From a virus, in the IMG/VR virus record IMGVR_UViG_3300045988_126262: 64,000 nucleotides of DNA. The stretch is one strand, 5' to 3'. Of this stretch, positions 18,856-52,057 are shown piece after piece (within the stretch, counting starts at the first letter, position 1; every line of letters starts with the position of its first letter). A program made the translations under genes and the position numbers. Under the pieces are notes generated by a model, which had not been told where the DNA came from, made no database searches, and saw only the letters and a list, made by a program, of their open reading frames with translations.

Positions 18856-18892
18856 TAAAAGTATATGAAATTCATTCACTTTTACTATTTTT
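18856..18892 (+). promoter_or_regulatory. Late-type promoter P1: 27-bp palindrome + -7 box
   Basis: AAAAGTATATGAAATTCATTCACTTTT (18856-18882), then TATTTTTG (18885-18892). Confidence 0.6.
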
Positions 18893-18913
18893 GAAAAAAA
18901 ATCGTATGAAGTA

Positions 18914-19696
18914 ATGCGAAACATGCCTATGGACGAAATTAAAATTTTTGAGAATGAGCAATTCGGAAAAGTAAGAATTGCAATGAGTGAGAGTAACGAG
19001 CCATTGTTTTGCTTGGCAGATGTGTGCAGTATTATAGGCATTACTAACGCAAGAAATGTCAGGTCAAGACTTGAAGAAGATGATGTCCGCCAAATGGACA
19101 CCATAGATTCGTTAGGTAGAAATCAACAAGTTACATTTATAACAGAAAGCGGTTTATATGATGTGATAATTCGTAGTGACAGCGAAAAAGCAAAGCCGTT
19201 TCGCAAATGGGTGACAAGTGAAGTTCTCCCTTCTATCCGAAAACATGGCGTATACCTGACAAACGAAACACTTGAAAAGGCTCTTTTATCTCCAGATTAT
19301 TTAATTAAACTTGCTACCCAAATTAAAGAAGAACGCCAAAAGCGCATTGAAGCGGAAAAAAAAGTAGCTGAAGCCGCACCGTCAGTTGCATTTACGAATG
19401 CGGTTCAATCTTCTAATACTTCTTGCTTGATTGGAGAACTTGCTAAATTAATTGCTCAGAACGGTTATCCAATCGGAGAAAAGCGGTTATTCGCATGGCT
19501 GCGTGAAAACGGATATCTTGGGAAACATGGTGAACGGTACAATATCCCCAATCAGCAATATATTGAACAAGGATTATTTGAGTTGAAAAAAGGAGTACGG
19601 TCTGGTAATGGTGGCGTATTACATACCACTATAACACCGAAAATAACCGGAAAAGGACAAGTATATTTTGTAAACAAATTCCTTAGAAATCAATAA
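18914..19696 (+). CDS. Antirepressor-like protein (Bro-N + KilAC/ANT domains)
   Basis: N-terminus FENEQFGKVRIAMSESNEPLFCLADVC.. (Bro-N pattern). C-terminus ..CLIGELAKLIAQNGYPIGEKRLFAWLRENGYL (KilAC pattern). Confidence 0.75.
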   Translation: MRNMPMDEIKIFENEQFGKVRIAMSESNEPLFCLADVCSIIGITNARNVRSRLEEDDVRQMDTIDSLGRNQQVTFITESGLYDVIIRSDSEKAKPFRKWVTSEVLPSIRKHGVYLTNETLEKALLSPDYLIKLATQIKEERQKRIEAEKKVAEAAPSVAFTNAVQSSNTSCLIGELAKLIAQNGYPIGEKRLFAWLRENGYLGKHGERYNIPNQQYIEQGLFELKKGVRSGNGGVLHTTITPKITGKGQVYFVNKFLRNQ

Positions 19697-19737
19697 TAAA
19701 TACACAGTGTGAAGATGCACTGCACAATTATACAATC

Positions 19738-21247: not shown

Positions 21248-23884
21248 ATGGCAAAGCCGAAAACTCCAAATCAGAAACGCAAGTACGGCGAGCTGAATAA
21301 ACGGCTCGCCAAATACGTCATGCTTGTGGAATCCATATACGAGGATTTGAATTTAGAGGCGGCTAAAATAGTCGGAATCACCGATTTTACCATTGATAGT
21401 GATAGGCCGTTTATGTGGTCGGATTATCCCCAAACAAGAAAACGGATAAGAGACTTACAAGAAAGGTTCGTTGAGGACATCGGAGCTGTAATATATAGTG
21501 GCACTTCTGAAGAATGGAAAAACAGCAACGAAGTTCAAGATCTTCTTGCCAACAAAGTATTGCAAACTTATGGCGCAACCATAGGAAAGGAGAAATACGA
21601 AATCCTATACCAGCCCAATAATGATGCATTGAAAGCGTTTCAGCAACGTAAGGATAAAGGATTTACTATATCAGATAAGTTGTGGAATCAATCGACTCTG
21701 TATAAGCAAGAACTTGAAGAAGCCATATCATGTGCCATTCAAAAAGGTACGAGTGCAATTACATTAAGTAAGCAAATATCCAAATATCTGCTCGATTTCC
21801 CACAACTACAAAAAGATTACAAGGAAAGGTTCGGAAAAGCATCACGGGCAATGGATTGTGAGTATCGTTCTATCCGTTTGGCTGCTTCCGAAATCAATAT
21901 GGCATACCGCCAAGCTGAAAACCTTCGCTGGCAGCAGATGGACTTCGTGGTGGGATATGAAATCAAGTTGAGCAACAACCATACTTGCAACGGAAAGCCT
22001 TTCCAAGACATTTGCGATATACTAGCCGGGAAGTACCCGAAAGACTTCCAATGGACCGGTTGGCATCCCCTTTGTTATTCAGATGATAGCGAAGTTCTGA
22101 CGAATAGAGGTTGGAAGTTATTCAAAGACGTTTTAGATGATGATTTGATATTATCGTTAAATCCAAATACACGTAATATAGAATGGGTTGAATTTATCGA
22201 TAGACAATGTTTCTCATATTATGGAGAAATGATACATTTCTACAATCGCTCTCTTGATTGTCTCGTAACCCCAGAACACAATATGGTGTATTTGAATAAG
22301 AATGACGGAAAAATTAAGAATTGCCAAGCGAAAGAATACACGAAAGGTAAAGGCAGATTTTATAGAGGTTGCGAGTATGAATCAGGCGATGTCGAATTTT
22401 ACCAAATTGATGATTTGATAATCCAATTTGATTTGTTCTGCGAATTTATGGGGTATTGGCTTTCTGACGGTAGTACAATGAGCAATTCGGGCGTCGTAAT
22501 ATCCCAGCAAGAGGGAGAAACGGCAAGAGATAAAATAGTTGATTGTATCAATCGTATGGGATTTGAACCACATCTTGAAAAACAAAAGGTCGTATTTTAT
22601 AACACTACCATACGCAACTATTTGAAGATTTTTGGACGGTGTATAAACAAATTTGTCCCGTATGTTATAAAGAATGCTTCAAAGAGGCAGATAAGGATTT
22701 TTCTTGATGCCTTTGTCCTTTGCGACGGTTATAAGCGTCCTTGCAGATCATTCATAGGGAATCACGGTAATGAATTCAAGTCAGATAAAGATGAAATCAT
22801 ATACTTCACCACATCTGAACGCATGGCAGGAGACTTATCCGAACTAATACTGAAATCAGGACATAGGCCTTCTTTTTCTATAAATAAAGCAGGAGTATCA
22901 CACAAAGCGAATGGTCCAATTATAAAGTCAAACTATGATTGTTACTCTATACGTGAATGCTATTCTGTCACGTCTTCGGTATTTAATAAAGAGATACAGC
23001 ATTATGATGGTCTTGTCTATGATTTGACACTGGAACGCAACCATATCATGTATATCCGCAGGAACGGAAAATGCTTTTGGGGTAGCAATTGTCGCTGTTA
23101 CAAGATACCCATTCTAAAAACCGAAGAAGAATTTTGGGAATGGGACGGTCGGAGTGAAGCCACGACAGCAAGCGTGAACGAAGTTAAAGACGTACCGGAC
23201 GCTTTCAAAAAGTGGGTATTAGATAATCAAGAGCGCATCAGCACAGCAAAAAAACGTAATACTTTACCATACTTTTTGCGTGATAATAAATCCGTTTATC
23301 AGAAAATAACAGTTGAAAGTTCCATTTCGGAAATTGTAAAACGAGCATCATCAGTGGGAGATGAAGTACAGTCCATAGCAGAACGGATCGCAATAAAAAA
23401 TGGTGGTTATGTTACGCCTATTAATTTCAAGAGTACAACTTCTATCACAAGAAAAGTCATCACAGAAGGTATAACTCCATACGATATTAAAGATGCTGTA
23501 AGAACAACCATAATCGTTCCGAAGTCCCGAATAGAAGATGTGTTAGAAGAACTGTACAAAACGGAAGGCTTTTTACGCCTTAAAAGGCAAAAACCAGAAT
23601 CATTCATGGGATATAGTGGAAACATCGTAAACATAAGAACCACAAATGGTCTTACTGCGGAAATACAGGTTAATACGGAACGTATGATTTTTGCAAAAGA
23701 AAGGCCGGAAGATGCGAAACGTATTCTTGGAAAAAAACGTTGGGAAGAAATACATAATGAGACAGGAATGGAAGGTGGTCTCGGACATAAATATTATGAG
23801 CAATGGCGCATACTCGATAAATCAAGTAATGAAGCACTAAAAATAGTAGAAAAATCTATTGAATATTATAGTCATTTCCGATAA
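21248..23884 (+). CDS. MuF/SPP1 gp7-like head morphogenesis protein with an inserted intein and a C-terminal RelA/SpoT-like (toxSAS-like) domain
   Basis: The extein junction restores GWHPL|CRCYKIP (the MuF HPxCRC motif). C-terminal motifs FKSTTSITRKV, DAVRTTIIV, GYSGNIVNI and AEIQVNT parallel RSH synthetase motifs RxKxxxSxxxK, DxxGxRVI, GYxSxH and EIQIRT. Confidence 0.7.
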   Translation: MAKPKTPNQKRKYGELNKRLAKYVMLVESIYEDLNLEAAKIVGITDFTIDSDRPFMWSDYPQTRKRIRDLQERFVEDIGAVIYSGTSEEWKNSNEVQDLLANKVLQTYGATIGKEKYEILYQPNNDALKAFQQRKDKGFTISDKLWNQSTLYKQELEEAISCAIQKGTSAITLSKQISKYLLDFPQLQKDYKERFGKASRAMDCEYRSIRLAASEINMAYRQAENLRWQQMDFVVGYEIKLSNNHTCNGKPFQDICDILAGKYPKDFQWTGWHPLCYSDDSEVLTNRGWKLFKDVLDDDLILSLNPNTRNIEWVEFIDRQCFSYYGEMIHFYNRSLDCLVTPEHNMVYLNKNDGKIKNCQAKEYTKGKGRFYRGCEYESGDVEFYQIDDLIIQFDLFCEFMGYWLSDGSTMSNSGVVISQQEGETARDKIVDCINRMGFEPHLEKQKVVFYNTTIRNYLKIFGRCINKFVPYVIKNASKRQIRIFLDAFVLCDGYKRPCRSFIGNHGNEFKSDKDEIIYFTTSERMAGDLSELILKSGHRPSFSINKAGVSHKANGPIIKSNYDCYSIRECYSVTSSVFNKEIQHYDGLVYDLTLERNHIMYIRRNGKCFWGSNCRCYKIPILKTEEEFWEWDGRSEATTASVNEVKDVPDAFKKWVLDNQERISTAKKRNTLPYFLRDNKSVYQKITVESSISEIVKRASSVGDEVQSIAERIAIKNGGYVTPINFKSTTSITRKVITEGITPYDIKDAVRTTIIVPKSRIEDVLEELYKTEGFLRLKRQKPESFMGYSGNIVNIRTTNGLTAEIQVNTERMIFAKERPEDAKRILGKKRWEEIHNETGMEGGLGHKYYEQWRILDKSSNEALKIVEKSIEYYSHFR
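22073..23089 (+). mobile_element. Intein (339 aa) with LAGLIDADG homing-endonuclease domain
   Basis: Starts CYSDDSEVLTNRGW and ends ..KCFWGSN with +1 Cys. LAGLIDADG-like blocks MGYWLSDGS and FLDAFVLCDGY. Inserted in the conserved HPxCRC motif. Confidence 0.75.
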
Positions 23885-23908
23885 AAATAATTATCTTTAC
23901 ATATAAAT

Positions 23909-24139
23909 ATGAACCCAAATATCCTACAAAAAAAATTACAAGCGGGTGAAGAAGTCTATATTTTAGACGATTTTGAAGAATCTGCAATACGTCTTGTTCT
24001 TGAAAATGGAAAGACAAATGCTTTCATTAAGCACAAAGGAAGACGCAATGAAAAGGAAATATCACAGTCAAATGAAACCGTTTGCGAGATAATATTAGGA
24101 GGTATAGAAATACCCAAATCAGAATATGACATGTACTAA
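23909..24139 (+). CDS. Hypothetical protein (76 aa), candidate immunity factor for the MuF C-terminal domain
   Basis: Immediately downstream of the toxin-like domain; overlaps the SAH gene by 14 nt. Confidence 0.5.
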   Translation: MNPNILQKKLQAGEEVYILDDFEESAIRLVLENGKTNAFIKHKGRRNEKEISQSNETVCEIILGGIEIPKSEYDMY

Positions 24140-24563
24140 AAATTCACTATTAGAAAAAGCCCTTCAAATCGCCGTCAAAGCCCATAGCGGACAAACCGAT
24201 AAAGCTGGAGCAGCCTACATCTTCCACCCTATCCGTGTGGCAAACCGATGCAAAACAGATGAGGAGCGCATAGTAGCTTTATTGCATGACACGATAGAAG
24301 ATACCGAAGTTACTGCTGAATATTTACTAATGGAAGGCTTTCCTCATAATATTGTGGATGCTATACTTTCTGTCACTCGTAACGATGATGAGATCTATGA
24401 CGATTTCATAAAACGGTGTAGATTGAATCCTATTGGAAGACAAGTAAAGCTGCACGACTTGGAGGACAATTTGGACGTAACCCGTTTACCTCAAATAATA
24501 GAGGAAGACTTACCGAGATTGAACAAGTATCTTAAAGCGTATAAGTTTTTGCTGTCATTGTAG
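24126..24563 (+). CDS. HD-domain small alarmone hydrolase (SpoT/Mesh1-like SAH)
   Basis: ALQIAVKAHSGQTDKAGAAYIFHPIRVA and VALLHDTIEDT (HD..ED hydrolase signature). Confidence 0.8.
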   Translation: MTCTKNSLLEKALQIAVKAHSGQTDKAGAAYIFHPIRVANRCKTDEERIVALLHDTIEDTEVTAEYLLMEGFPHNIVDAILSVTRNDDEIYDDFIKRCRLNPIGRQVKLHDLEDNLDVTRLPQIIEEDLPRLNKYLKAYKFLLSL

Positions 24564-24573: not shown

Positions 24574-24903
24574 ATGAAGCAAATCAAGCTATCAAAACAG
24601 GAGAAGCAAGTGTTGCGTTTAATCAGCAGCGGGATTGTCTGCCCAAACACTTATCCGCACCATATATTCATTTCGTGCGTAGACTCGCTGGAAAGATTAG
24701 GTCTTGTCAAAGGTCTATGGAACGAGGGGCATGAACTTGAAGATGTCCGCATAACGAAATATGGAAAAATTTATCTTGCCACCAATCCTAACTTACGCAA
24801 TCCCATAGACTGGAAATGGATTATAACTACCATCATCGCAGTAGCAAGTGCCATATTCGGCGCTATGGCCTTGTTTGTGGCTTGCTCGATAAAATACGGA
24901 TAA
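24574..24903 (+). CDS. Membrane-anchored hypothetical protein (109 aa)
   Basis: C-terminal TM WIITTIIAVASAIFGAMALFVAC; N-terminal part possibly winged-helix-like. Confidence 0.55.
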   Translation: MKQIKLSKQEKQVLRLISSGIVCPNTYPHHIFISCVDSLERLGLVKGLWNEGHELEDVRITKYGKIYLATNPNLRNPIDWKWIITTIIAVASAIFGAMALFVACSIKYG

Positions 24904-25153: not shown

Positions 25154-25202
25154 AATTATGTATGAAATTCATACATTTTCAAGATTCCATGCTCTAATTT
25201 TG
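25154..25202 (+). promoter_or_regulatory. Late-type promoter P2 (divergent palindrome copy)
   Basis: AATTATGTATGAAATTCATACATTTTC (25154-25180; 22/27 match to consensus); TAATTTTG box at 25195-25202. Confidence 0.45.
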
Positions 25203-27008: not shown

Positions 27009-27350
27009 ATGGCCGGGCATACGATAACCATAATACTAAGCGATGAGGCGAACAGTTTTGTAAGGCAGCAGCCATTCAAGGCACAGCAGAAGATAGCGTA
27101 TAATATTCGTAGAGTGCAGAGTGGTCTAATAGAAAAGGACGTTTTCAAGAAATTGGAAAACTCTGATATATGGGAGTTACGGACGCTTTTCAACGGAATT
27201 TGTTACCGTCTGTTTGCTTTCTGGGACACCAAGAAAGGGGCTTTGGTAGTGGTTACTCACGGGATAGTGAAAAAGACGCAGAAAACCCCTAAAAAGGAGA
27301 TAGAAAAGGCAGAGAGAATAAGGAAAGAATATTTTAATGATAAAAAGTAA
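27009..27350 (+). CDS. higB: RelE/HigB-superfamily toxin (Gp49/DUF891-like)
   Basis: ..IWELRTLFNGICYRLFAFWD..ALVVVTHGIVKKTQKTPKKEIEKA matches the Gp49-like pattern. Track start 26958 is TTG; first ATG is 27009. A TATCTTTG box lies at about 26981. Confidence 0.75.
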   Translation: MAGHTITIILSDEANSFVRQQPFKAQQKIAYNIRRVQSGLIEKDVFKKLENSDIWELRTLFNGICYRLFAFWDTKKGALVVVTHGIVKKTQKTPKKEIEKAERIRKEYFNDKK

Positions 27351-27355
27351 CAGAT

Positions 27356-27688
27356 ATGGCAAAGATGAATTTCACACCAGCAGACAAATTGATAGATGAT
27401 GTATGGGGAAAGGTGGGCACTCCCGAAAGGGACGCTATGGAAGCTCAACTCAAAGATGATTTGCAGGCTTATTACATTGGAGAGGCTATCAAGGCAGAAA
27501 GGCTCAAACAGAACCTCACACAGGAGGAATTAGGCAAAAAAGTAGGCGTGAAACGCTCTCAAATTTGTAAGTTGGAGAGCGGTAAGTGTATAATAACACT
27601 TCCTACTATGAGCAAAGTTTTTAAGGCTTTGGGAATTACAACGGCCACCCTTGATTTGGGAATAGGCGGAAAGGTTGCTTTGTGGTAA
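27356..27688 (+). CDS. higA: XRE-family HTH antitoxin (HigA-like)
   Basis: LKQNLTQEELGKKVGVKRSQICKLESGK HTH; sits 5 nt downstream of the toxin (toxin-first HigBA order). Confidence 0.75.
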   Translation: MAKMNFTPADKLIDDVWGKVGTPERDAMEAQLKDDLQAYYIGEAIKAERLKQNLTQEELGKKVGVKRSQICKLESGKCIITLPTMSKVFKALGITTATLDLGIGGKVALW

Positions 27689-27712
27689 GAATATAAAGCA
27701 GGATCCATAACG

Positions 27713-27740
27713 AGGAGGACGCAAAACGCCCTCCTTTTTT
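27713..27740 (+). terminator. Intrinsic terminator after the HigBA-like operon
   Basis: AGGAGGACG-CAAAA-CGCCCTCCT (one mismatch) followed by TTTTTT. Confidence 0.7.
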
Positions 27741-27850
27741 GTCGCCTTATACTTTAAATTTAGGTCGTGATTAGGTAATAAATAAACTTAAACGAGTTAC
27801 AAATGAAATCATTGCTTCATTCATAATCTTTAATTCAAATCCAGACAATA

Positions 27851-28612
27851 CTATCCTACAATCGAGAGATACCGGCTTAAAGATTCTATTTCAGCCCGTA
27901 TAACGACCTTTTGGAACTCTGCCGGATTGTTCTCCGTATGAGAGGCTTCCAGTGCCTTGTAATAGCTTATTTTGTCCTCGTTGCTGCCTTTGAGATTTAC
28001 CAGTGTATAACCGTTGCGGAGTAAGTATAGATTCATCAGAAGCCGAGATGTACGCCCGTTCCCGTCTATGAACGGGTGTATTCGTACCAACTCATCATGA
28101 AGATAAGCCGCAATGAGCACCGGGTGAATGCCCTGCTCCTCCATTCCGGAAAACCTTGTCATAAAAGCCTCCATTTGTGGTTGTATCAAATACGGCTGTG
28201 GAGGGACATGTGTACTTCCCGAAATCATAACAGGCACGCCCCGATAACGTCCGGCATTCTCTCTGTCTATGCCATGTAGCACAATAGCGTGTATTTCCTT
28301 GATTGTGCGCTCCGATATTTCCATACCTCCCTTTGCAAAGTCCTTTATGTAGTCTATCGCTTCAACGTGGTTAATCGCTTCAAGGTGTTCCCGCATTGAC
28401 TTTCCGGCGATAGTAACCCCCTCGTTGACTACTAACTCCGTTTCTTGCAGTGTGAGCGTATTTCCCTCGATCCGGTTGCTTTCATAGGTGTATTCAATGG
28501 CAAACGCATTCTCTATCTTTTGCAGGGCATCCGGTGGTAATGGGCGCAGCCCCAACAAACGAGCTTTCAACGTGTCGCATTGAAGTAATAGCTTTGTTAT
28601 TTCCTCGTTCAT
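27851..28612 (-). CDS. fic: Fic-domain protein (putative AMPylase), class with N-terminal inhibitory motif
   Basis: Canonical HPFIDGNGRTSR Fic motif; N-terminal SNRIEG fits the (S/T)xxxE(G/N) inhibitory helix. Confidence 0.9.
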   Translation of the reverse strand: MNEEITKLLLQCDTLKARLLGLRPLPPDALQKIENAFAIEYTYESNRIEGNTLTLQETELVVNEGVTIAGKSMREHLEAINHVEAIDYIKDFAKGGMEISERTIKEIHAIVLHGIDRENAGRYRGVPVMISGSTHVPPQPYLIQPQMEAFMTRFSGMEEQGIHPVLIAAYLHDELVRIHPFIDGNGRTSRLLMNLYLLRNGYTLVNLKGSNEDKISYYKALEASHTENNPAEFQKVVIRAEIESLSRYLSIVG

Positions 28613-28615
28613 GGC

Positions 28616-28879
28616 TTAATCTTTTGACTCAATTACCTTTAACTTCGCTCCACATTTAGGACACGTCAATACAGTAGTATCGATATTGGGGCGTACTTCT
28701 TCTGGTGATACAAACAATTCCCATATATTAACTCCTAAATTAGAAGCAATTGAAGTAAGAACTTTAATTGAAGGATTCCCTGATATATGTTGGTTCAATG
28801 CACTTTGGCTAATTCCCATTCTTTCGGCTAACTCTTTTGTAGTTATACCTTTTTGCTCAATAATATCTCTTATTCTCAT
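28616..28879 (-). CDS. XRE HTH protein with C-terminal zinc ribbon (regulator/antitoxin candidate for Fic)
   Basis: KGITTKELAERMGISQSALNQHISG HTH; CPKCGAKL half-ribbon at the C-terminus; 3-nt gap to fic. Confidence 0.7.
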   Translation of the reverse strand: MRIRDIIEQKGITTKELAERMGISQSALNQHISGNPSIKVLTSIASNLGVNIWELFVSPEEVRPNIDTTVLTCPKCGAKLKVIESKD

Positions 28880-28934
28880 ATCCTAAAAGTTATTTCTGTT
28901 ACAAAAGTCGTTTTTTTATTAGTATATGCAAGCT

Positions 28935-29009
28935 ATATCTTGTATAAATAAAGTTAAATACAAGATAAATCTTGCTCAAACCATTGTAAATACAAGATAT
29001 AACTTGTAT
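28935..29009. promoter_or_regulatory. Operator-like inverted repeats upstream of the HTH-fic operon
   Basis: ATATCTTGTAT (28935-28945) / ATACAAGATA (28958-28967), and ATACAAG-N6-CTTGTAT (28990-29009). Confidence 0.5.
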
Positions 29010-29037
29010 CTTTATATCATAAAACTAAAACAAAGAT

Positions 29038-29325
29038 ATGAAAACGAAAATCAACAAATCGCAACTCTTCAAAATGGCATGGTCAATGTATAAACGCTCT
29101 ATCTCGGTTCTCGGCCGTGAGTTCTGCCAGTCGTTCAGTGCTTGTTTGAGGAACGCATGGTTTAAGATGAAAGCGGAAGCCCGCAAGGCAGAAAAAGAGG
29201 CTCGCCGGTTAATGAAAAAGTCGGGACCCGCACAAAAGCCCGAATCGATTGTATTCGACTCAGCAATGGAAAGAGGTATAATAGAGTATTACAGAAACCA
29301 AAGCGGGCGTTATTGCGGAGATTGA
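29038..29325 (+). CDS. Hypothetical basic protein (95 aa)
   Basis: ATG ORF divergent from the fic operon. Confidence 0.5.
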   Translation: MKTKINKSQLFKMAWSMYKRSISVLGREFCQSFSACLRNAWFKMKAEARKAEKEARRLMKKSGPAQKPESIVFDSAMERGIIEYYRNQSGRYCGD

Positions 29326-29470
29326 TACACCAAATACACGTGCTCTTCCAAAACAACAAGAGCGGTGGCCCGGCTATATCACTGTGGAAACAAAAGCCGG
29401 GTCACTTTAATAAAAACCAATAGATTAAACCTATTGTCCGTGATACTCCATTTCATTCATATTTCATTTC

Positions 29471-29606
29471 AAGTTACCAAAAGTTAAACTCCTGATTATG
29501 AGTAAAATAAGGTTGTAAATATTTGGTTAACTTACTGATAATGAGTATCTTTACAATACTAAAACAAACAACATTACTAACAATTAAAAGACAAAGAGCA
29601 ATGAAA
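29471..29606 (+). repeat. Promoter/leader repeat, copy B
   Basis: Identical to copy C over about 136 bp, through ..AAAGAGCAATGAAA. Confidence 0.9.
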
Positions 29607-29939
29607 GCAACTCATATTTTTACAGAGAAATTTGATACAAGAAGAAAACTTGCCAACAGAGCACTGAAAGCAATGAATGACATCTGTGACTACGATAATG
29701 GTACAATTCGCAACCCTTATGAGCTTGCAAGTTCTGTAATGAAAGACGGTAGAACACTTATCCAAACTATCTATGAAGATGGCGAGGTACAATACAATGA
29801 TGGGTGGTATATCGTAGAAGTTGACGAATATTGTATGTATGTTGACTTAACAGGTATTGCTACTAAAGAAATGGGGATTGAGAAGTATGAGTATATTGAC
29901 GAAATCAGCGAATTTGAAGAGATTGAAGTATTAGTATAA
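29601..29939 (+). CDS. Hypothetical protein (112 aa), first gene of cassette B
   Basis: Track ORF 29523 begins on TTG inside the repeat; first ATG is 29601 with the AGAGCAATG context. Confidence 0.55.
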   Translation: MKATHIFTEKFDTRRKLANRALKAMNDICDYDNGTIRNPYELASSVMKDGRTLIQTIYEDGEVQYNDGWYIVEVDEYCMYVDLTGIATKEMGIEKYEYIDEISEFEEIEVLV

Positions 29940-30627: not shown

Positions 30628-30630
30628 AAA

Positions 30631-33193: not shown

Positions 33194-33230
33194 AAAAGTG
33201 CATGAATTTCATATACTTTTTATATATTTA
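33194..33230 (+). promoter_or_regulatory. Late-type promoter P3: palindrome + -7-like box
   Basis: AAAAGTGCATGAATTTCATATACTTTT (33194-33220), then TATATTTA (33223-33230). Confidence 0.55.
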
Positions 33231-33934: not shown

Positions 33935-34157
33935 CAACCCTTATAGTAGCGATAAGCAAAAGCAAGAACATTAAAGCTTGTGCAGTTTACGGGGTGATAG
34001 AAATTGCTATCTGACACGACTGAAAGAAGCCGAAGAATTGCATAAGTGTTCTTGTAAGTAGCTTGAAGAATGATTGAATTTGTGTTTAAGCCTGTCGGGA
34101 ATACGCTCGACAGGCATTTAACGCAAAATGTATATGAAGTTATATACAACTCAGTAA

Positions 34158-39557: not shown

Positions 39558-39595
39558 AAAAGTGTATGAAATTCATATACTTTACTGTATATTTG
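39558..39595 (+). promoter_or_regulatory. Late-type promoter P4: palindrome + -7 box
   Basis: AAAAGTGTATGAAATTCATATACTTTA (39558-39584), then TATATTTG (39588-39595). Confidence 0.6.
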
Positions 39596-39683
39596 CAAAA
39601 AGCGTATGAAGATGTACGCCACCCGACTTGTCGTAAACACCTGTTTGTCCGTTTAGGCGGAGGCACATCTGAAAGAAGATGCG

Positions 39684-44375: not shown

Positions 44376-44446
44376 GCGTATCTGGTGTAACGGTAGCACA
44401 TATACACTCCATGTATAAAGTTGTGGTTCGACCCCACAGTTACGCT
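44376..44446 (+). tRNA. tRNA-like gene with UCC anticodon and C33
   Basis: Acceptor GCGTATC/GTTACGC (one U-U mismatch), D-arm GTGT-AACGGTA-GCAC, anticodon arm TATAC-ACTCCAT-GTATA, T-arm TGTGG-TTCGACC-CCACA. Preceded by the hairpin ACGTGGG/CCCACGT (44347-44369). Confidence 0.55.
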
Positions 44447-44464
44447 CAGTATAATTTATTTTGC

Positions 44465-45181
44465 ATGGACAAAGAAGGGAAAATAATAGAAATGGATATT
44501 ACAGATACTATCATGGAAAGACCTTATGAGTTCCATATAGGAGAAATGCAATTCTACTTATACCCTGCCACATTGGGTAAAATATACCTTTTATCACGTC
44601 TTACCGAAAATTTAGAAATAAATAAAGACTTCCTTTCTCTAAATCCATATATGGAAGCATTACGATTATGCAATTCCAAAAGAGATATTATATGCAAAAT
44701 ATTGTCTTACCATACATTCGATAAAAAGGAAGAATTATTCAATAGCCACCTAATAAATGAAAGACGAAAGCTATTTGAAGACAACCTCTCGAATGAAGAA
44801 CTTGCTCAACTATTCATAATAGTGTTATCAAAGGATAACATTGAGCAGTTTATTAAACACTTCAAGATTGATATTGAGAAAAAAGAACAAGAAAAAATAT
44901 CAAGAATCAAGAAAAAGAAGTGTAACACTATAACCTTTGGAGGTAAAAGTATTTATGGTACTTTGATAGATATAGCCTGCGAACGCTATGGCTGGACTAT
45001 GGACTATGTTGTATGGGGTATTAGTTATGCCAACCTGCATATGTTACTTAATGATTACATAACATCTATATACCTTACTGACGACGAGATAAAAAAATAT
45101 CATATATCTACGGACCGAACATTTATAAACGGGGACGATCCTAAAAATATGGATAAAATAAAAGGCATGAAGTGGGACTAA
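44465..45181 (+). CDS. Tail assembly chaperone-like protein (by position)
   Basis: The first plausible ATG after the tRNA-like gene gives MDKEGKIIEMD; the track ORF 44369 reads through the tRNA-like sequence. Confidence 0.5.
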   Translation: MDKEGKIIEMDITDTIMERPYEFHIGEMQFYLYPATLGKIYLLSRLTENLEINKDFLSLNPYMEALRLCNSKRDIICKILSYHTFDKKEELFNSHLINERRKLFEDNLSNEELAQLFIIVLSKDNIEQFIKHFKIDIEKKEQEKISRIKKKKCNTITFGGKSIYGTLIDIACERYGWTMDYVVWGISYANLHMLLNDYITSIYLTDDEIKKYHISTDRTFINGDDPKNMDKIKGMKWD

Positions 45182-45286: not shown

Positions 45287-45982
45287 TTATAAAGGGATAG
45301 TATCAATATGAATGATTTCACCATTTGTACCAATATCTATCGTCCAACATATCACGTCATTATAATTAGTCCATGCCCCAATAGATGGCACTTGAATTGT
45401 GGCATTTTCAAGTATTTGATAATAAACCTTTTCTCCAATATATATATAAAAGAAATTCAGAGGATATTGTTTTGCGCTTCCTTTTGTAGCAGATTTTATT
45501 CCAGAATTATATGTATTAAATGACATTGTAATATTACCAAAATATGGAGCATTAAATGTATATGATTTTCCGCTCAAAGTATTGTTTTTAGTAGATGGAG
45601 TCTTTTTGACTTTTGTAAACGATATACTTTTTGTTTTTTTATTTCCATATAAATCTTTATAGTCGATATTCACTTTAAGCAAATCATCTGATACTTCTTC
45701 AACTGTATAAATTGTTGTCCTATTAAAATAGGAATTTTGACATGATACTATATTTTTGGATTGAGTATAATCACCGCTATCTATAAACTCATCTGCAATA
45801 TATGCCGAATAGAATCCATCATTTCCAAATGACACTACATAATTTTCACTTTCCCAAACACCTATAATTAGTGATTTCGTATCATCACTCGTCGATCCGG
45901 GTTCTCCGTCCTCCGTTCGTGCACATGATTGTAAAATAATAATTGATAATAGAATCAATATATATAAAAATAATTTCTTCAT
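45287..45982 (-). CDS. Lipoprotein (231 aa), moron on the opposite strand
   Basis: Signal peptide with lipobox MKKLFLYILILLSIIILQSC, followed by an acidic stretch (ARTEDGEPGSTSDD). Confidence 0.75.
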   Translation of the reverse strand: MKKLFLYILILLSIIILQSCARTEDGEPGSTSDDTKSLIIGVWESENYVVSFGNDGFYSAYIADEFIDSGDYTQSKNIVSCQNSYFNRTTIYTVEEVSDDLLKVNIDYKDLYGNKKTKSISFTKVKKTPSTKNNTLSGKSYTFNAPYFGNITMSFNTYNSGIKSATKGSAKQYPLNFFYIYIGEKVYYQILENATIQVPSIGAWTNYNDVICWTIDIGTNGEIIHIDTIPL

Positions 45983-45994
45983 ATCTTTATTTTT

Positions 45995-47125
45995 TTATTT
46001 ATCAGCACATTTTTTCGCCAAATCAAGACCCTCTTTAAGACCATCGGCATAATTAAAAATATCATCGATAGTCTCAATGTCAATCCATTCATTCGTCTTG
46101 TAGTTATCCTTTGGCAAGCATATTTTTTTACTCCGTTTCCCTATATAAATGCGGCAAATCCACCACCATGTACTACCATCTATGTTCACTGAAAAATAAG
46201 TCTTGTAGTCGTTATATTGAATACGAGATACATCTACATACTGCCTCAATATACTGCGCACAATGTTATAGGCATCTATCTCCTCTTGTGTAGTAACTAT
46301 ACCTTTTTCTCGGTCTTGAAATACTACACCATCGGGAAGTTTTTCTTCATTCATTTCGTTTGGTTGTTGATTTTCATTCTCAACCTCCTGTGGTATCTGT
46401 TTTTCCTCCTTATTCTCATTCTTCATAGCCACATTCAAACGGTCGGATATAATATCGTTAATCACCGAAGCAATGGATTTCTTAACAATAGGTCTATATT
46501 GGTCCACAAGTTTTGCCGTATATTTCCCATCATTAAGATTACGGACAAAATAACGTGTAAATTCATCGTCTGGCATTTGGAAATTACGATTAAGCATTTC
46601 TTTTACTTGTATCGTGATTTGTAACTCTTGTGCCGTACTCAATATATCTTGCTCATTATAATAAGACTTATGAAACTTTTTCAGTTGCTCAATATCGTTG
46701 TCCGATAAATCGAGCATATTTACCACAAGGAACGGCTTTTCGTCCATTATGTTCACCTTTTCTAAATCTGTATAAAAGCGATATTCTATTCCATTCGTCA
46801 AGACCCCAAACCTAGCCTTTGATGCGACAAAATATCTTTGTAACTGAGTGTCATGTAAATTCAAGTTTTGTTTACAATGCTTGCATTCTATAAGTAGTAT
46901 AGGATTTTCGTCCTTCATTATGGCATAGTCTATTTTTTCGCCTTTTCTCTTAACTAAGTCACAATCCATTTCCGGTACAACCTCAAAGGGATTGAATACA
47001 TCATACCCCAATGCTGCTATCACAGGCATTACAAAAGAGGTTTTTGTCGCTTCTTCCGTTGCTATGCTATCCTTCTGTTTAGCAATTTTCTCTACAATCT
47101 GTTGAATTGTATCTTTGAAATCCAT
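45995..47125 (-). CDS. HsdR_N-like PD-(D/E)xK nuclease-domain protein (376 aa)
   Basis: EEATKTSFVMPVIAALGYDVF..KIDYAIMKDENPILLIECKH..RFGVLTNGIEYRFY matches the type I restriction enzyme R N-terminal domain pattern. Own TACTTTTG -7 box on the minus strand (47152-47159). Confidence 0.7.
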   Translation of the reverse strand: MDFKDTIQQIVEKIAKQKDSIATEEATKTSFVMPVIAALGYDVFNPFEVVPEMDCDLVKRKGEKIDYAIMKDENPILLIECKHCKQNLNLHDTQLQRYFVASKARFGVLTNGIEYRFYTDLEKVNIMDEKPFLVVNMLDLSDNDIEQLKKFHKSYYNEQDILSTAQELQITIQVKEMLNRNFQMPDDEFTRYFVRNLNDGKYTAKLVDQYRPIVKKSIASVINDIISDRLNVAMKNENKEEKQIPQEVENENQQPNEMNEEKLPDGVVFQDREKGIVTTQEEIDAYNIVRSILRQYVDVSRIQYNDYKTYFSVNIDGSTWWWICRIYIGKRSKKICLPKDNYKTNEWIDIETIDDIFNYADGLKEGLDLAKKCADK

Positions 47126-47234
47126 ATCTTATGCTGTTAAGATTGTTTCGTCAAAAGTATAATACAATAATCATTTATTAAAATATTTATACTCACACAT
47201 TAGTTAAACTTTATTAACTCTATTCTATTTTATC

Positions 47235-47270
47235 AAAAGTATATGAATTTCATACACTTTTGTATATTTG
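47235..47270 (+). promoter_or_regulatory. Late-type promoter P5: palindrome + -7 box
   Basis: AAAAGTATATGAATTTCATACACTTTT (47235-47261), then TATATTTG (47263-47270). Confidence 0.6.
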
Positions 47271-47315
47271 CAAATGATGTGATGTTACATCTACCCCTTT
47301 TAATCGAAAAGACTC

Positions 47316-50300: not shown

Positions 50301-51599
50301 ATCTCCTCTTCTACGTTACAAATGATTGATGGTATTGTAACACTTGCAAATAGTTCTTCTACTGCCATGTCAGGAACGGCCGAAGCTGCATCTACGGCAA
50401 TTCAGAATGTAGAAAAAGCCTCCGTAATACTGTCGATTGTAGGTGCAGCCTTGCAAGTAGCAACAAAAATAGTAAGCTTATTTAGACAAGAGTCGTCGTA
50501 TGAAAAGTACGAAGAAGCAAAGGAGGTGTACGAGTCATATATAGATATATTGGATCAGATAATCGAGAAACAATTGGAATTGGCCGATTCGCTGGCGGGA
50601 GAAAACGCACAGGCTGCCTATGACAAAGCGATAGAATTATACAAGAAACAGGCAGATTCGGCACGGGTATTAGGAGCACAATATTACAAATCTAGGGAAT
50701 CCGGGGAAAAATCGAAAGGGTATCAAGATTTTTACGGTATGTCCGCCGCCGGTTGGCAGCAAGCCGCATCCGCACTAGGTATATCTGCGCAAGAATTGGC
50801 TATGATGATGTCAAAAAACATGACTAACTTATTTAACCTTCCCGTTGAGCAATTAGAAAAACTAATGTCGGAAGCTCCTCTATTTATATCACAGCTGGAT
50901 AGTGAAGCGCAAGAATACATAAAGCAGATTATCGAAGCGGAGAATAATATTAAATCGACGGCAGAGCGAGAGATGGAGAACGCCACAGGCATATCTTTTG
51001 AATCTTTCTCCGATGACATATTAGAGTCCTTGTATGATGTGGAGAAAGGAGCGGAGGACATTGCGGACGACATCGCAGACTATATGAGAAAAGCTCTCAT
51101 TAAAGCCATGTATGTAAAGCAATATGAACCGGAAATGCGCAAATGGTATGAGATGTGGGCGGAGGCGACAAAAGACGGAGAAATCGACACGGAAGAACAG
51201 ACCGCACTGGATAACCTAAAAAATTCAATTATTCAAGGAGCCGAAGCGGGAGCCGCCGCTATCAATGCACAATTTGGAACAGGTTCTACCACCGAACAAA
51301 AGTCGACAGCCGGAGGTTCTGAAACCATGTCACAAGATACAGCAACGGAATTAAACGGCCGGTTTACAGCGTTGCAGCTTTCTGGTGAAGAAATCAAAAA
51401 TCAAATGATTTCAGCCGTAATCTCTCTAAATTCTCTTTTATCTTTATCAACTAATAGCAATTCTATATTAAATAACATTCTTAATCAACACGTGATTACT
51501 AACAGCTACTTAGAAGACATTGCAAAATACACGAAGCCAATTCTTGAATTTGGCGATAAATTTGATAGAATGATTTCAATTTTTAACAATAAACTATAA
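47316..51599 (+). CDS. Tail tape measure protein (TP901-family core)
   Basis: 1427 aa, long coiled coils; N-terminal core ..FDLQGVANGARQLLAYGTSAEDVNETLIRLGNIAAG..DLNQFTGRGIP.. Confidence 0.9.
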   Translation: MAGLHFDITGDNSNFLRKLREVETGVTNTSKEIEKNGLGIEDMFNKMTKAAAAFGAGFTAKELIQNIIQVRGEFQQLEVAFTTMLGSSEKANVLMAQLTETAAKTPFDLQGVANGARQLLAYGTSAEDVNETLIRLGNIAAGLSQPLGDLVYLYGTTMTQGRLYTQDLNQFTGRGIPMIKELAKEFGVAESEIKGMVEAGMIGFPEVQKVIQNLTNEGGMFFNLMQEQSKTITGQISNIGDSFSMMLNDIGKANEGIINDALSGVSYLIGNYETVGKTLLEIVGTYGAYKAALITITALQKVYSAVLAQSALNQSLAAASGITLSNAEALAATRTKLLQVAQAALNKTLLANPYVSVAAAVAALGLGIYKLVTYQTEAEKAQERLNAAEKESEKAALSEQRELAKLNGELSSLKEGTDEYNTVKEKIVAGYSKYYEGLEEEINKVGLTEEAYEKLTKAITDSYGARQYQHFKSQQEDWLDNIMSDNLGKIQDRLYSELGDKEGAKLYSQIYHAILERRDLDAAIQDKLNEIQGKGTIFADSRIDTYISNIREAQKITEDLDEKAREKFGVTSINTSQQAANEPFSTEGKSISQLEEEIKKAETSLASLKKALADGSGTKEAVEQQEAYIKSLQDTVLEREKDLRVINEVKTQISKLEKEQGETVSGSKEYNALQSRIDALRAKLPKTATGLTDINAYTDQLNRIKELRKKNASERIRLDTDLENQVEQARINAMEDGIDKEMAQRELNNKIELQDIERQKQEYIRKITEAQRQIFEAEENAKAAKDKNYKKKAFDPSSVSVDTSMFDNMSEYTKQKQANETANYYNNILAKYQDYTTKRLSVTKKYQNDLANLEKAGGTEEQKAELSYQLTEALNAIDKEFAMREVSFQTWANSITNMSLDELERLLTEAEQELARMENEGGTNGNELAVQRAKVTATKDRIANIKSKESTSPDKRSIKEWQELYKTLSKVEREFEELGDTIGGTVGEIISAAGSISSSTLQMIDGIVTLANSSSTAMSGTAEAASTAIQNVEKASVILSIVGAALQVATKIVSLFRQESSYEKYEEAKEVYESYIDILDQIIEKQLELADSLAGENAQAAYDKAIELYKKQADSARVLGAQYYKSRESGEKSKGYQDFYGMSAAGWQQAASALGISAQELAMMMSKNMTNLFNLPVEQLEKLMSEAPLFISQLDSEAQEYIKQIIEAENNIKSTAEREMENATGISFESFSDDILESLYDVEKGAEDIADDIADYMRKALIKAMYVKQYEPEMRKWYEMWAEATKDGEIDTEEQTALDNLKNSIIQGAEAGAAAINAQFGTGSTTEQKSTAGGSETMSQDTATELNGRFTALQLSGEEIKNQMISAVISLNSLLSLSTNSNSILNNILNQHVITNSYLEDIAKYTKPILEFGDKFDRMISIFNNKL

Positions 51600-51600
51600 A

Positions 51601-52020
51601 ATGGCATCGGGAGAGTTTTACATAAATGGGAAAGACTGCTATACAACTTGGGGTATAAGTATGGATACATCATCTCTTTCCTTCTTAATGACACCGTCAC
51701 CTTTAAAAGAGTTCATCGAAAACAAGTCTCGATTAGAACATGGCAAACGAGTCCTGTCCTCTAATCCTAAAATCGATGAACGAAATATCACTTTAACTTT
51801 TAACCTGACGGCAAAAACGGAAGAAGAATTCTTTTCAAGATACAACAGCTTTTGTGAAGAATTGGCAACAGGCATAATAAATATAAAAACAAAGTATCAA
51901 CCAAATATTACTTACAAAACAATCTATATTTCATGCAATCAATTTACGCAATTCATGAGAGGAATAGCACGATTTTCTCTAAAACTTGTCGAATATAATC
52001 CAGCAGATAGAAATTCATAA
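51601..52020 (+). CDS. Distal tail-like protein (139 aa)
   Basis: Starts 2 nt after the tape measure stop. Confidence 0.5.
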   Translation: MASGEFYINGKDCYTTWGISMDTSSLSFLMTPSPLKEFIENKSRLEHGKRVLSSNPKIDERNITLTFNLTAKTEEEFFSRYNSFCEELATGIINIKTKYQPNITYKTIYISCNQFTQFMRGIARFSLKLVEYNPADRNS

Positions 52021-52057
52021 AAAAGTGCATGTTTTTCATACACTTTTATTATCTTTG
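52021..52057 (+). promoter_or_regulatory. Late-type promoter P6: palindrome + -7 box
   Basis: AAAAGTGCATGTTTTTCATACACTTTT (52021-52047), then TATCTTTG (52050-52057); the ATG lies 12 nt downstream. Confidence 0.6.

What the first reader, a model, noticed from the sequence alone, without database searches (positions are those of the whole stretch)
18856..52057. Six copies of a 27-bp palindrome fused to the -7 promoter box mark the heads of all late operons
The consensus is AAAAGTGTATGAA(A/T)TTCATACACTTTT. Copies are at:
- 18856-18882
- 25154-25180 (the divergent copy)
- 33194-33220
- 39558-39584
- 47235-47261
- 52021-52047

In five copies the palindrome centre lies 15-17 bp upstream of a TAnnTTTG-type box: TATTTTTG at 18885, TATATTTA at 33223, TATATTTG at 39588, TATATTTG at 47263 and TATCTTTG at 52050. 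The palindrome therefore occupies the place of the usual -33 TTTG element, which is absent.

The sites precede antirepressor/portal/MuF, the second antirepressor, DUF488-tRNAs-terminase, scaffold-capsid-tail tube, the tape measure, and the tail fibre block. This looks like a dedicated late-gene regulatory site for a dimeric phage protein, acting as activator or repressor. Candidate regulators are the LuxR-type protein (3143-3697) and the small HTH at 62386-62685. I know of no described late-promoter architecture of this kind for Bacteroidota phages.
Basis: partly seen in the sequence, partly recalled or inferred. Interest (0 to 1): 0.65.

Follow-up and report, generated by a model that had tools for sequence, protein, structure and literature searches.

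The report
Palindromic regulator site on phage late promoters
A gut Bacteroides-type prophage carries the same 27-bp palindrome directly beside the promoter box of five structural-gene operons; it is most likely the docking site of a still unidentified regulator of late genes, a layout known from coliphage P1 but not described for Bacteroidota phages.

Summary
Six copies of AAAAGTRYATGAAWTTCATRYACTTTT exist, where chance predicts none, and there are no others. Five end 1-3 nt before a TAnnTTT(G/A) -7 box, with the dyad centre 15-17 nt upstream (P about 1e-12).

It is a protein-binding DNA site, not an RNA hairpin or terminator. Arm substitutions in 26 variants from more than 100 related viral contigs are not compensatory, and folding is weak (-4 to -10 kcal/mol).

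Related lineages keep a dyad at the same offset (16±1 nt) but change its inner sequence. The shared core is AAAGTG-N13-CACTTT.

Activator and repressor cannot be separated by sequence. I favour a P1 Lpa-like late activator site (about 0.45) over a repressor operator (about 0.3).

- The missing -33 TTTG is not diagnostic, because the early promoter also lacks it.
- The LuxR-type gene does not track the dyad.
- The HTH call for 62386-62685 has no support.

The regulator remains unidentified.

The parts
18857..18883 (+). Palindrome copy 1 (AAAAGTATATGAAATTCATTCACTTTT), upstream of the Bro-N/ANT, portal and MuF-toxin operon
18886..18893 (+). -7 box TATTTTTG, 16 nt from the dyad centre
18902..18919 (+). 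Leader hairpin tcgtatGAAGTAatgcga, starting 8 nt after the box
19705..19722 (+). Leader hairpin cagtgtGAAGATgcactg, 15 nt before the portal ATG, with no promoter box
25154..25180 (+). Palindrome copy 2 with degenerate outer arms and no adjacent -7 box. In related contigs its left half is fused to the right half of copy 4.
33194..33220 (+). Palindrome copy 3, upstream of the DUF488, tRNA and terminase block
33223..33230 (+). -7 box TATATTTA, with no leader hairpin
34129..34148 (+). Leader hairpin tgtatatGAAGTTatataca, 9 nt before the ATG of the DAM-like/GNAT gene
39558..39584 (+). Palindrome copy 4, upstream of the scaffold-position gene and capsid block
39588..39595 (+). -7 box TATATTTG
39602..39619 (+). 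Leader hairpin gcgtatGAAGATgtacgc
47235..47261 (+). Palindrome copy 5, in the divergent region between the leftward accessory genes and the tape-measure gene
47234..47241 (-). Perfect -7 box TACTTTTG on the minus strand, embedded in the left arm and facing the leftward gene 45995-47125
47263..47270 (+). -7 box TATATTTG
47276..47291 (+). Leader hairpin gatgtGATGTTacatc
52021..52047 (+). Palindrome copy 6, starting directly after the stop codon of 51601-52020 and upstream of the tail or fibre block
52050..52057 (+). -7 box TATCTTTG
52065..52082 (+). Leader hairpin tcgtatGAAGATatacga. The likely true start codon is 52090 (MIDIK..., as in L199).
3143..3697 (+).
2782..2838 (.). Immunity operators TATCC-N7-GGATA between the S24 repressor gene and the early promoter (-7 box at 2837). 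This motif differs from the late palindrome.

Best explanation
The palindrome is the DNA-binding site of a dimeric regulator specific to this phage family. The regulator sits immediately upstream of the host-type -7 box and acts as a late-gene activator, much as Lpa does at the 11 late promoters of coliphage P1.

If the box starts near -12, the site covers about -41 to -15.

**Shown**
- The site exists and is symmetric at the DNA level.
- It is fixed 16±1 nt from the -7 box.
- It is conserved in more than 100 related contigs.
- Sister lineages have a dyad at the same offset with a different inner sequence.

**Inferred**
- A protein binds the site.
- That protein contacts or recruits the host sigma-A RNA polymerase.
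- The effect is positive.
- The regulator is not the S24 repressor, and probably not the LuxR-type protein.

The outer half-sites AAAGTG and CACTTT (N13 apart) are the part shared by the family. The inner ATGAA-W-TTCAT is an elaboration specific to this lineage.
For: **Statistics and placement**
- Six copies against about 0 expected.
- Five copies abut a -7 box, P about 1e-12.

**DNA-level symmetry, not RNA structure**
- In 26 unique variants, arm positions 2 and 9-11 never vary and positions 5-6 almost never.
- Positions 7 and 8 are non-complementary in 16/26 and 12/26 variants.

**Fixed geometry across lineages**
- Centre to box is 15-17 nt here.
- It is 16-17 nt in the L198/L199 lineage, which carries TGATTGAA-WW-TCAATCA.
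- It is 16 nt in 58 of the 60 contigs with the L204-type capsid-operon promoter. Nearly all of these keep AAAGTG-N13-CACTTT.
- Among 1,225 unique TAnnTTTG boxes in all loci, 29 have a dyad of at least 10/13 at this offset, and 24 of those are these late promoters.

**Not a host regulon**
- A scan of 185,579 species genomes gave only 30 scattered, chance-like hits.
- The motif matches neither the phage's own immunity operators nor the Bacteroidetes SOS boxes GGA-N5-TCC and CTAA-N5-TTAG (PMC8565304).

**Precedent for positive control**
- Late genes of well-studied phages are under positive control (PMC10695390).

**L204 lineage**
- Its tape-measure and fibre promoters have perfect -7 boxes and little or no dyad.
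- A good box alone is therefore presumably not enough for uncontrolled expression in a lysogen. This last step is inference.
Against: - No regulator has been identified. No window protein other than CI, the Cro-position ORF, LuxR, two antitoxin HTHs and the Bro-N proteins looks DNA-binding.
- A site spanning about -41 to -15 would also occlude RNA polymerase.
- In the L244 immunity type, a likely repressor operator sits 15 nt from the early -7 box, the same geometry.
- The -7 boxes are perfect consensus, like the repressor-controlled early promoter at 2837.
- The early promoter also lacks a -33 TTTG, so nothing in the core elements marks these promoters as activator-dependent.
- Transcription starts were not measured.
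Confidence: 0.45

Rival explanations
1. The palindrome is a repressor operator. A phage-encoded dimer, distinct from the S24 immunity repressor, binds it and blocks sigma-A RNA polymerase at intrinsically strong late promoters, keeping the structural and toxin genes silent in the lysogen. Known parallels are the mycobacteriophage L5 stoperators, the phiC31 conserved inverted repeats and RK2 KorB sites (from memory).
For: - The site abuts the -7 box and covers the -33 region.
- The -7 boxes are perfect and resemble the repressed early promoter.
- A presumed immunity operator in L242/L244/L247 has the same offset, 15 nt, from an early -7 box.
- At copy 5 the left arm contains a leftward -7 box, which any bound protein would occlude.
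Against: - The immunity repressor has different operators, TATCC-N7-GGATA, so a second lysogeny repressor would be needed, and none is evident.
- Simple occlusion does not require the strict 16±1 nt spacing that is kept across lineages with different dyad sequences.
- L204-lineage tape-measure and fibre promoters lack a good dyad yet must also be silent in lysogens.
- Well-studied phages control late genes positively.
Confidence: 0.3
2. The LuxR/GerE-type protein (3143-3697) is the specific binder and activator.
For: - It is the only classical activator-type HTH in the window.
- LuxR-family dimers typically bind 18-20-bp dyads (from memory), and the core here is 19 bp.
- Its C-terminal HTH is nearly invariant between variants that are 100% and 66% identical overall. 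These variants sit next to different immunity modules but occur in phages with the same late palindrome.
Against: - Only 86 viral contigs encode a relative, against 257 with the capsid gene.
- By my comparison of the contig lists (recorded), most large contigs that carry the palindrome returned no LuxR hit. One example is the 67.7-kb contig 3300045988_136686, which has copies at both ends.
- LuxR-positive contigs carry four different dyad types.
- No palindrome lies within 10 kb of any LuxR gene.
- No GerE-type HTH is encoded in the palindrome-, capsid- and contig-walk loci (L001-L117, L148-L226, L250-L253).
- Caveats: the search relied on short N-terminal peptide patterns, many contigs are truncated, and 6 of the 86 relatives were not listed.
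Confidence: 0.1
3. No dedicated factor binds the site. The 27-mer plus box plus leader is a promoter cassette copied within the genome, and kept as a homology patch where modules recombine. On this view the symmetry serves bidirectional promoter-like arms: (T/C)ACTTTT is one base away from a -7 box.
For: - L148 and L004 carry hybrids, the left half or upstream flank of copy 2 joined to the right half of copy 4, which deletes or relocates about 14 kb.
- Copy 1 has two alternative upstream flanks and two alternative downstream genes.
- At copy 5 the left arm forms a perfect leftward -7 box.
Against: - Flanks outside the 27-mer and box are unrelated between the six copies.
- The invariant positions are mirror-symmetric.
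- Sister lineages change both arms symmetrically, for example AATATG-N13-CATATT in L199.
- Only one of the five left arms forms a good reverse box.
- Recombination at a conserved regulatory site is expected anyway and does not exclude binding.
Confidence: 0.1
4. The palindrome is a bidirectional intrinsic terminator or other RNA hairpin that closes the preceding operon.
For: The sequence is an inverted repeat flanked by A4 and T4. Copies 3 and 6 lie 20 nt and 0 nt after a stop codon.
Against: - Folding energy is -4.3 to -10 kcal/mol, against -14 to -16 for the GC-rich terminators at 24983 and 38295 in the same genome.
- Arm substitutions are not compensatory.
- Copy 5 lies in a divergent region with nothing to terminate.
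- In the L204 lineage only a 7-bp A/T-rich outer stem with a 13-nt loop remains.
Confidence: 0.03

Closest known systems
Coliphage P1 late promoters and the activator Lpa (gp10)
   Same: Many dispersed late operons (11 in P1) each carry a conserved inverted repeat immediately upstream of the -10-type element. That repeat is the binding site of a phage-encoded late activator working with host RNA polymerase (PMC10695390).
   Different: - The host promoter grammar differs: Bacteroidota -7 TAnnTTTG rather than -10/-35.
- The repeat is 27 bp with its centre about 16 nt before the box. In P1 it is a 9-bp repeat centred near -22 (from memory).
- No Lpa-like annotation appeared among the ORFs scanned.
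- Binding and activation are untested here.
P2 Ogr / P4 Delta sites (TGT-N12-ACA) and Mu Mor/C sites
   Same: Short outer half-sites separated by a long spacer (GTG-N13-CAC here), repeated at several late promoters (from memory).
   Different: Those dyads are centred near -55 or -43.5 and do not abut the -10. Ogr is a small zinc-finger protein and Mor/C are small HTH proteins; no homologue was detected here.
T4 MotA box at middle promoters
   Same: An activator site replaces the upstream promoter element at about -30, at a fixed distance from the -10-type element (from memory).
   Different: The MotA box is asymmetric and needs the co-factor AsiA to remodel sigma. The site here is a dyad.
Multi-site phage and plasmid repressor operators (mycobacteriophage L5 stoperators, phiC31 conserved inverted repeats, RK2 KorB OB sites)
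   Same: One short motif is repeated at many transcription units across the genome and bound by a single repressor (from memory).
   Different: Stoperators are asymmetric and act on elongation. The phiC31 repeats and OB sites are not held at one fixed distance from the core promoter. Here the immunity repressor clearly has other operators.
PhiBxa-type MuF-toxin prophages of Bacteroidaceae
   Same: The operon behind copy 1 encodes a MuF N-terminal domain fused to a toxin-like C-terminus, followed by immunity-type genes. This is the arrangement described for PhiBxa and Apk2 (PMC11699363).
   Different: That literature deals with the toxin, not with transcriptional control. Relatedness of the whole phage to PhiBxa was not tested.

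Membership tests
Bacteroidota sigma-A (-33/-7) promoter | -7 element TAnnTTTG(Y) | tested here: met
   Four perfect TAnnTTTG boxes and one TATATTTA lie 1-3 nt after the palindrome. The consensus is taken from PMC12632263.
Bacteroidota sigma-A (-33/-7) promoter | -33 element TTTG about 19-21 nt upstream of the -7 box | tested here: not met
   There is no TTTG in that window at any of the five promoters. It is also absent at the early promoter and at all other intergenic boxes.
Bacteroidota sigma-A (-33/-7) promoter | Transcription start a few nt downstream of the box | not testable with these tools
   This needs 5' RACE or dRNA-seq.
P1 Lpa-type late promoter | Conserved inverted repeat at a fixed position just upstream of the -10-type element at many late operons | tested here: met
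   Five operon heads carry it, with the centre 15-17 nt from the box. The same offset holds in sister lineages.
P1 Lpa-type late promoter | Phage-encoded activator homologous to Lpa | tested here: inconclusive
   None of the ORFs scanned against Pfam, PHROGs or NCBIfam carried such an annotation. Many small ORFs have no match at all.
P1 Lpa-type late promoter | Promoter activity depends on the activator | not testable with these tools
   This needs a reporter or induction experiment.
LuxR/GerE box | 18-20-bp dyad | tested here: met
   The 19-bp core is GTRYATGAAWTTCATRYAC.
LuxR/GerE box | Co-occurrence of the site with the cognate LuxR-type gene | tested here: not met
   LuxR relatives occur with four dyad types. 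They were not detected in most contigs carrying the palindrome or in the late-region loci.
Intrinsic terminator | Stable G+C-rich stem followed by a U-run | tested here: not met
   Folding energy is -4.3 to -10 kcal/mol with 2-4 G-C pairs. The terminator scan does not call these sites, while real terminators score -14 to -16.
Intrinsic terminator | Stem maintained by compensatory change | tested here: not met
   Arm positions 7 and 8 are mismatched in 16/26 and 12/26 variants.
Immunity (CI-type) operator of this phage | Same motif as the operators between the repressor gene and the early promoter | tested here: not met
   Those operators are TATCC-N7-GGATA.
Bacteroidetes SOS (LexA-like) box | GGA-N5-TCC or CTAA-N5-TTAG | tested here: not met
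   The motifs from PMC8565304 do not match. There is also no host regulon in 185,579 genomes.

The most novel reading that the evidence does not exclude
PhiBxa-like Bacteroidaceae prophages may use a two-part late-gene control system with no homologue among described regulators.
- The first part is a dyad (core AAAGTG-N13-CACTTT) locked 16 nt upstream of the -7 box. It would be bound by an unknown factor that substitutes for -33 recognition.
- The second part is a 5'-terminal leader hairpin with a GA(A/U)GNN loop on late transcripts. It would be read by an RNA-binding factor acting on antitermination, stability or translation.

Together these would time expression of the virion genes and of the MuF-fused toxin cargo.
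Probability: 0.25. Interest if true: 0.75.

Novelty: new variant of a known kind. Interest (0 to 1): 0.52.

Why it matters
- Nothing in the held literature describes how temperate Bacteroidota phages time their late genes.
- This phage group is common in human-gut viromes: 257 viral contigs carry the capsid gene.
- The first palindrome-controlled operon carries a MuF-fused polymorphic toxin of the kind linked to gut colonisation. The regulator of this site would therefore also set when the toxin is made.
- The site gives a concrete bait, the 27-mer, for finding a Bacteroides-phage late regulator.
- The cassette of dyad, -7 box and leader hairpin is a compact candidate part for regulated expression in Bacteroides.

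Tried and rejected
1. **Annotated relatives.** Megablast of 18000-42900 against INPHARED phages gave no hit. The capsid protein reaches only distant Cellulophaga and Porphyromonas phages and unannotated faecal contigs.
2. **Host regulon.** The genome-wide pattern scan returned only chance or terminator-like hits.
3. **Rfam.** It found only three tRNAs in the window.
4. **Different specificity in L198/L199.** I first read TGATTGAA-WW-TCAATCA as a different specificity co-evolving with a regulator. On alignment its half-site differs from an allowed window half-site (GTGAATGAA) by one base, so I dropped that claim.
5. **L204 palindrome at 5356.** AAAGGTGTCAAGTGACACTTT overlaps the portal ATG and is not a promoter dyad.
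6. **Contig walking.** Walking contig 3300045988_072890 (L251, L253) to find its early or regulatory genes yielded none.
7. **Presence/absence of window ORFs in 14 contigs.** Coverage was too patchy to name a regulator.
   - ParB-like 17898-18659 is missing from four of the contigs covered around copy 1.
   - Neither Bro-N/ANT gene was found in the covered part of contig 144371 (positions 4200-38513).
   - The only ORFs constantly next to copy 1 are the unannotated 16721-16930, 17269-17559 and 17556-17852.
8. **CGTATGAAG as a third half-site.** The same leader motif persists in the L204 lineage, which lacks the inner palindrome, and its 3' partner covaries. It is better read as a hairpin.
9. 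**A second phage group.** L008, L056, L061 and L098, with the related L024/L045, carry one copy after a 92%-identical tape-measure C-terminus. This is probably a recombination remnant and gave no regulator clue.
10. **Sigma-70-type promoter scan.** It is uninformative for this host.


Full report
**1. The observation**

All are on the + strand, where shuffles predict none. A half-site weight matrix and an outer-arm search find no further full sites, only isolated half-sites.

Five copies are followed after 1-3 nt by TAnnTTT(G/A). The dyad centre lies 16, 16, 17, 15 and 16 nt before the first T of the box. Only 64 such boxes occur on the + strand, so the chance of this adjacency is about 1e-12. 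Copy 2 has weak outer arms and no adjacent box.

The window is a temperate siphovirus-type prophage. It encodes:
- an integrase, an S24/HTH repressor, RecT/YqaJ and methylases;
- an SPP1-type portal, a MuF-type protein, TerS/TerL, the major capsid protein, a tape measure and tail genes.

The palindromes head the portal/MuF, terminase, capsid, tape-measure and tail-fibre blocks. Two + strand blocks, 29038-33174 and 38408-39332, have none.

**2. DNA site or RNA structure?**

Pattern and capsid-gene scans of viral contigs brought in more than 100 stretches from close relatives. Pooling all copies that are followed by a -7 box gives 26 distinct 27-mers.
- Arm positions 2 and 9-11 never vary, and positions 5-6 almost never.
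- Positions 7 and 8 vary freely and are non-complementary in 16/26 and 12/26 variants.
- Only 3 of the 26 variants are perfect palindromes.

As RNA the copies fold at -4.3 to -10 kcal/mol. The G+C-rich terminators at 24983 and 38295 in the same genome fold at -14 to -16, and the terminator scan does not call the palindromes. Copy 5 lies between divergent genes, where there is nothing to terminate.

The symmetry is therefore read at the DNA level, as expected for a dimeric protein. The terminator reading is rejected.

**3. What relatives show**

- **Capsid 82-83% identical (L198/L199).** These carry TGATTGAA-WW-TCAATCA, or a degenerate form with outer arms AATATG-N13-CATATT, at the portal, capsid-operon and fibre promoters. 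Centre-to-box distance is again 16-17 nt.
- **Capsid about 75% identical (L204 lineage).** These lack the inner palindrome. In all 60 contigs found with its leader sequence, the capsid-operon promoter has an outer inverted repeat. In nearly all it is AAAGTG-N13-CACTTT, in three sub-types. The repeat sits 16 nt from the box in 58 contigs and 17 nt in the 2 contigs of sub-type iii.
- **L204 tape-measure and fibre promoters.** They have perfect boxes but little or no dyad.
- **All loci together.** Of 1,225 distinct TAnnTTTG boxes, 29 have a dyad of at least 10/13 at this offset, and 24 of those are these late promoters.

The family-wide element is thus an outer dyad locked to the -7 box. The window's lineage has extended it inward to a full 27-bp palindrome and placed it on every structural operon.

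The motif is not a host regulon: 185,579 species genomes gave 30 scattered hits in coding DNA or in unrelated A/T-rich hairpins.

**4. Who binds?**

*The S24 repressor.* It has its own operators, TATCC-N7-GGATA, around the early -7 box at 2837. Bacteroidetes SOS boxes are GGA-N5-TCC and CTAA-N5-TTAG. Neither matches the palindrome.

*The LuxR/GerE protein (3143-3697).* It is the only classical activator-type HTH in the window. Its HTH is nearly invariant between variants 100% and 66% identical overall. These lie beside different immunity modules but occur in phages with the same palindrome. That fits a conserved target. Four observations count against a dedicated link:
- Relatives occur in only 86 contigs, against 257 for the capsid gene.
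- LuxR-positive contigs carry the window-type palindrome or any of three L204-type dyads.
- By my comparison of contig lists, most large contigs that carry the palindrome gave no LuxR hit.
- No GerE-type HTH is encoded anywhere in the palindrome-, capsid- and contig-walk loci (L001-L117, L148-L226, L250-L253).

The LuxR search used short peptide patterns and many contigs are truncated, so the gene is not excluded. It is not supported as the dedicated partner.

*Other candidates.*
- ORF 62386-62685 matches no family.
- The ParB-like gene 17898-18659 is missing from four palindrome-carrying contigs covered around copy 1. Neither Bro-N/ANT gene was found in the covered part of contig 144371, although the first 4.2 kb of that contig was not sampled.
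- The small unannotated ORFs 16721-16930, 17269-17559 and 17556-17852 are always just upstream of copy 1 in this lineage. They are positional candidates only.

The regulator remains unidentified. Because the outer dyad persists across mosaic early regions, a factor from the conserved late module or from the host is also possible.

**5. Activator or repressor?**

*For an activator:*
- The strictly kept 16±1 nt spacing, maintained while the dyad sequence changes.
- The P1 precedent: 11 late promoters, each with an inverted repeat bound by Lpa, together with the general rule of positive late control.
- The need for L204-type promoters without a good dyad to be silent in lysogens.

*For a repressor:*
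- The site would cover about -41 to -15.
- The boxes are perfect, as at the repressed early promoter.
- The missing -33 TTTG is shared by every other intergenic box in the window.
- A presumed immunity operator in the L244 immunity type sits at the same 15-nt offset from its early box.

At copy 5 the left arm contains a perfect leftward -7 box (TACTTTTG) facing the accessory genes 45287-47125. Any bound protein would shut that promoter while acting on the tape-measure promoter.

I put the activator reading at about 0.45 and the repressor reading at about 0.3.

**6.

A hairpin starts 5-8 nt after the box at copies 1, 4, 5 and 6. Similar hairpins lie 9-15 nt before the portal and DAM-like start codons, where there is no promoter. 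Each has a 5-7-bp stem and the loop GA(A/U)GNN.

- CGTATGAAG occurs only three times in the window, all in these leaders.
- The window has 8 such hairpins on the + strand and 1 on the - strand, against about 2 expected per strand.
- In 1.57 Mb of capsid-oriented loci there are 336 instances (30 distinct) on the late strand and 38 (5 distinct) on the other.
- Orthologous leaders keep the structure with different stems. The capsid-operon leader is gcgtat/gtacgc here and gcatgt/acatgc in L204. The tape-measure leader is gatgt/acatc here and ccgtgt/gcacgg in L204.
- On 14 leaders, 98.8% of cells pair and 4 of 6 pairs change on both sides. The set was picked with a hairpin filter, so pairing itself is partly by construction. 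The strand bias, the placement and the orthologous compensation are the real evidence.

The hairpin would sit at or near the 5' end of the late transcripts. It could stabilise the 5' end, or be a protein recognition element affecting translation or antitermination. I did not resolve this.

**7. Recombination at the site**

- L148 carries a hybrid palindrome: the left half of copy 2 joined to the right half of copy 4. L004 joins the upstream flank of copy 2 to copy 4.
- Copy 1 has two alternative upstream flanks. It is followed by Bro-N in some contigs and directly by the portal gene in others.
- The terminase block sits between MuF and the capsid operon here, but upstream of the portal gene in L199 and L204.

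The cassettes are therefore module junctions. This is expected of conserved regulatory sequences and does not argue against binding.

**8. Comparison and verdict**

The closest described system is the set of P1 Lpa-dependent late promoters. The logic is the same: a dispersed inverted repeat next to the -10-type element of many late operons. The differences are the host promoter grammar, the dyad size and position, and the absence of a recognisable regulator.

The finding is real and its core reading is sound. The mechanism is only partly resolved. I rate it a new variant of a known kind, of moderate interest.

Noticed in passing
window 18902-18919, 19705-19722, 34129-34148, 39602-39619, 47276-47291, 52065-52082; also L204 4553-4570, 8709-8726, 16271-16288, 20984-21003; L199 about 5586, 8712, 18637: A conserved 5' leader hairpin (5-7-bp stem, loop GA(A/U)GNN) sits at late-gene heads in all three lineages. 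Stems covary between orthologous leaders and the motif is strongly biased to the late strand. Its function is unknown; candidates are 5'-end protection, translation control or an antitermination signal.
   Followed up: partly
window 21248-24563: The MuF-type head protein (878 aa) has a long C-terminal extension that hits the PHROG annotated 'Bxa ADP-ribosyl transferase'. It is followed by a Tis1-immunity-like ORF (23909-24139) and an HD-domain ORF (24126-24563). This is the MuF polymorphic-toxin plus immunity layout described for PhiBxa and Apk2 (PMC11699363), and it lies in the operon behind palindrome copy 1.
   Followed up: partly
L148 and L004 (viral contigs 3300029058_000010 and 3300029552_000211), compared with window 25154 and 39558: L148 has a hybrid palindrome: the left half of copy 2 joined to the right half of copy 4. 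L004 joins the upstream flank of copy 2 to copy 4. Recombination inside the palindrome therefore removes or relocates the roughly 14-kb block between the two copies. The terminase module is also placed differently in the L199 and L204 lineages.
   Followed up: partly
window 2782-2845: Three dyads, TATCC-N7-GGATA at 2782-2798 and 2822-2838 and GGATA-N14-TATCC at 2794-2817, abut the early -7 box TATATTTG at 2837. They lie between the S24 repressor gene (2051-2767, - strand) and an 83-aa ORF in the Cro position (2878-3129). They are probably the immunity operators.
   Followed up: partly
window 47234-47241 (- strand) and 47152-47159 (- strand): Two perfect TACTTTTG boxes face the leftward accessory genes 45995-47125 (HSDR_N domain) and 45287-45982. 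One is embedded in the left arm of palindrome copy 5, so occupancy of the palindrome should affect both divergent promoters.
   Followed up: no
L056 1660-1810; the same element in L008, L061 and L098 (the related L024/L045 differ downstream): In a second phage group, a single palindrome copy follows a tape-measure C-terminus 80-92% identical to the window's. About 14 nt after the palindrome there is a TATATTTG box, and then roughly 100 nt of G+C-rich sequence ending in a hairpin plus T-run. This may be a small RNA gene convergent with the tape-measure gene.
   Followed up: no
window 3143-3697 and about 80 relatives (L227-L310): The LuxR-type protein has a Cys-rich N-terminal domain with conserved C15, C54, C76 and a CPLRGEC-x6-C motif. 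This domain diverges (59-100% overall identity) while the GerE HTH stays nearly invariant. It may be a metal- or redox-sensing early regulator with a conserved target, but that target is unknown.
   Followed up: partly
window 60731-64000 and 1725-3200, compared with L235: In contig 3300029236_000032 the homologues of the window's right end and of its left end lie 5.3 kb apart on one strand. The genes at 60.7-64 kb therefore belong to the same element as the integrase and immunity region, and the window is probably a permuted or nearly complete phage genome.
   Followed up: no
window 27009-29325: This is an accessory block. It holds a Gp49/HigB-like toxin with an HTH antitoxin (27009-27688), a Fic/DOC protein with an Xre-type HTH (27851-28879, - strand) that has its own CTTGTAT/ATACAAG repeats at 28900-29030, and a 95-aa basic protein (29038-29325) with a weak match to the N-terminus of AcrIIA3.
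   Followed up: no
window 33865-33935 and 44376-44447: ARAGORN reports an odd tRNA with a 2-base anticodon at 33865-33935, which Rfam confirms as tRNA-like. It also reports a tRNA-Gly at 44376-44447, which Rfam does not confirm and which overlaps the start of ORF 44411-45181.
   Followed up: no
window 24574-24903: This 109-aa ORF is 97-100% conserved in the 10 of 14 palindrome-carrying contigs where it was detected. Its N-terminus reads like a winged-helix or GerE-type start (LSKQEKQVLRLISSG) and its C-terminus is a predicted membrane helix. It lies just upstream of copy 2 and matches no family.
   Followed up: no
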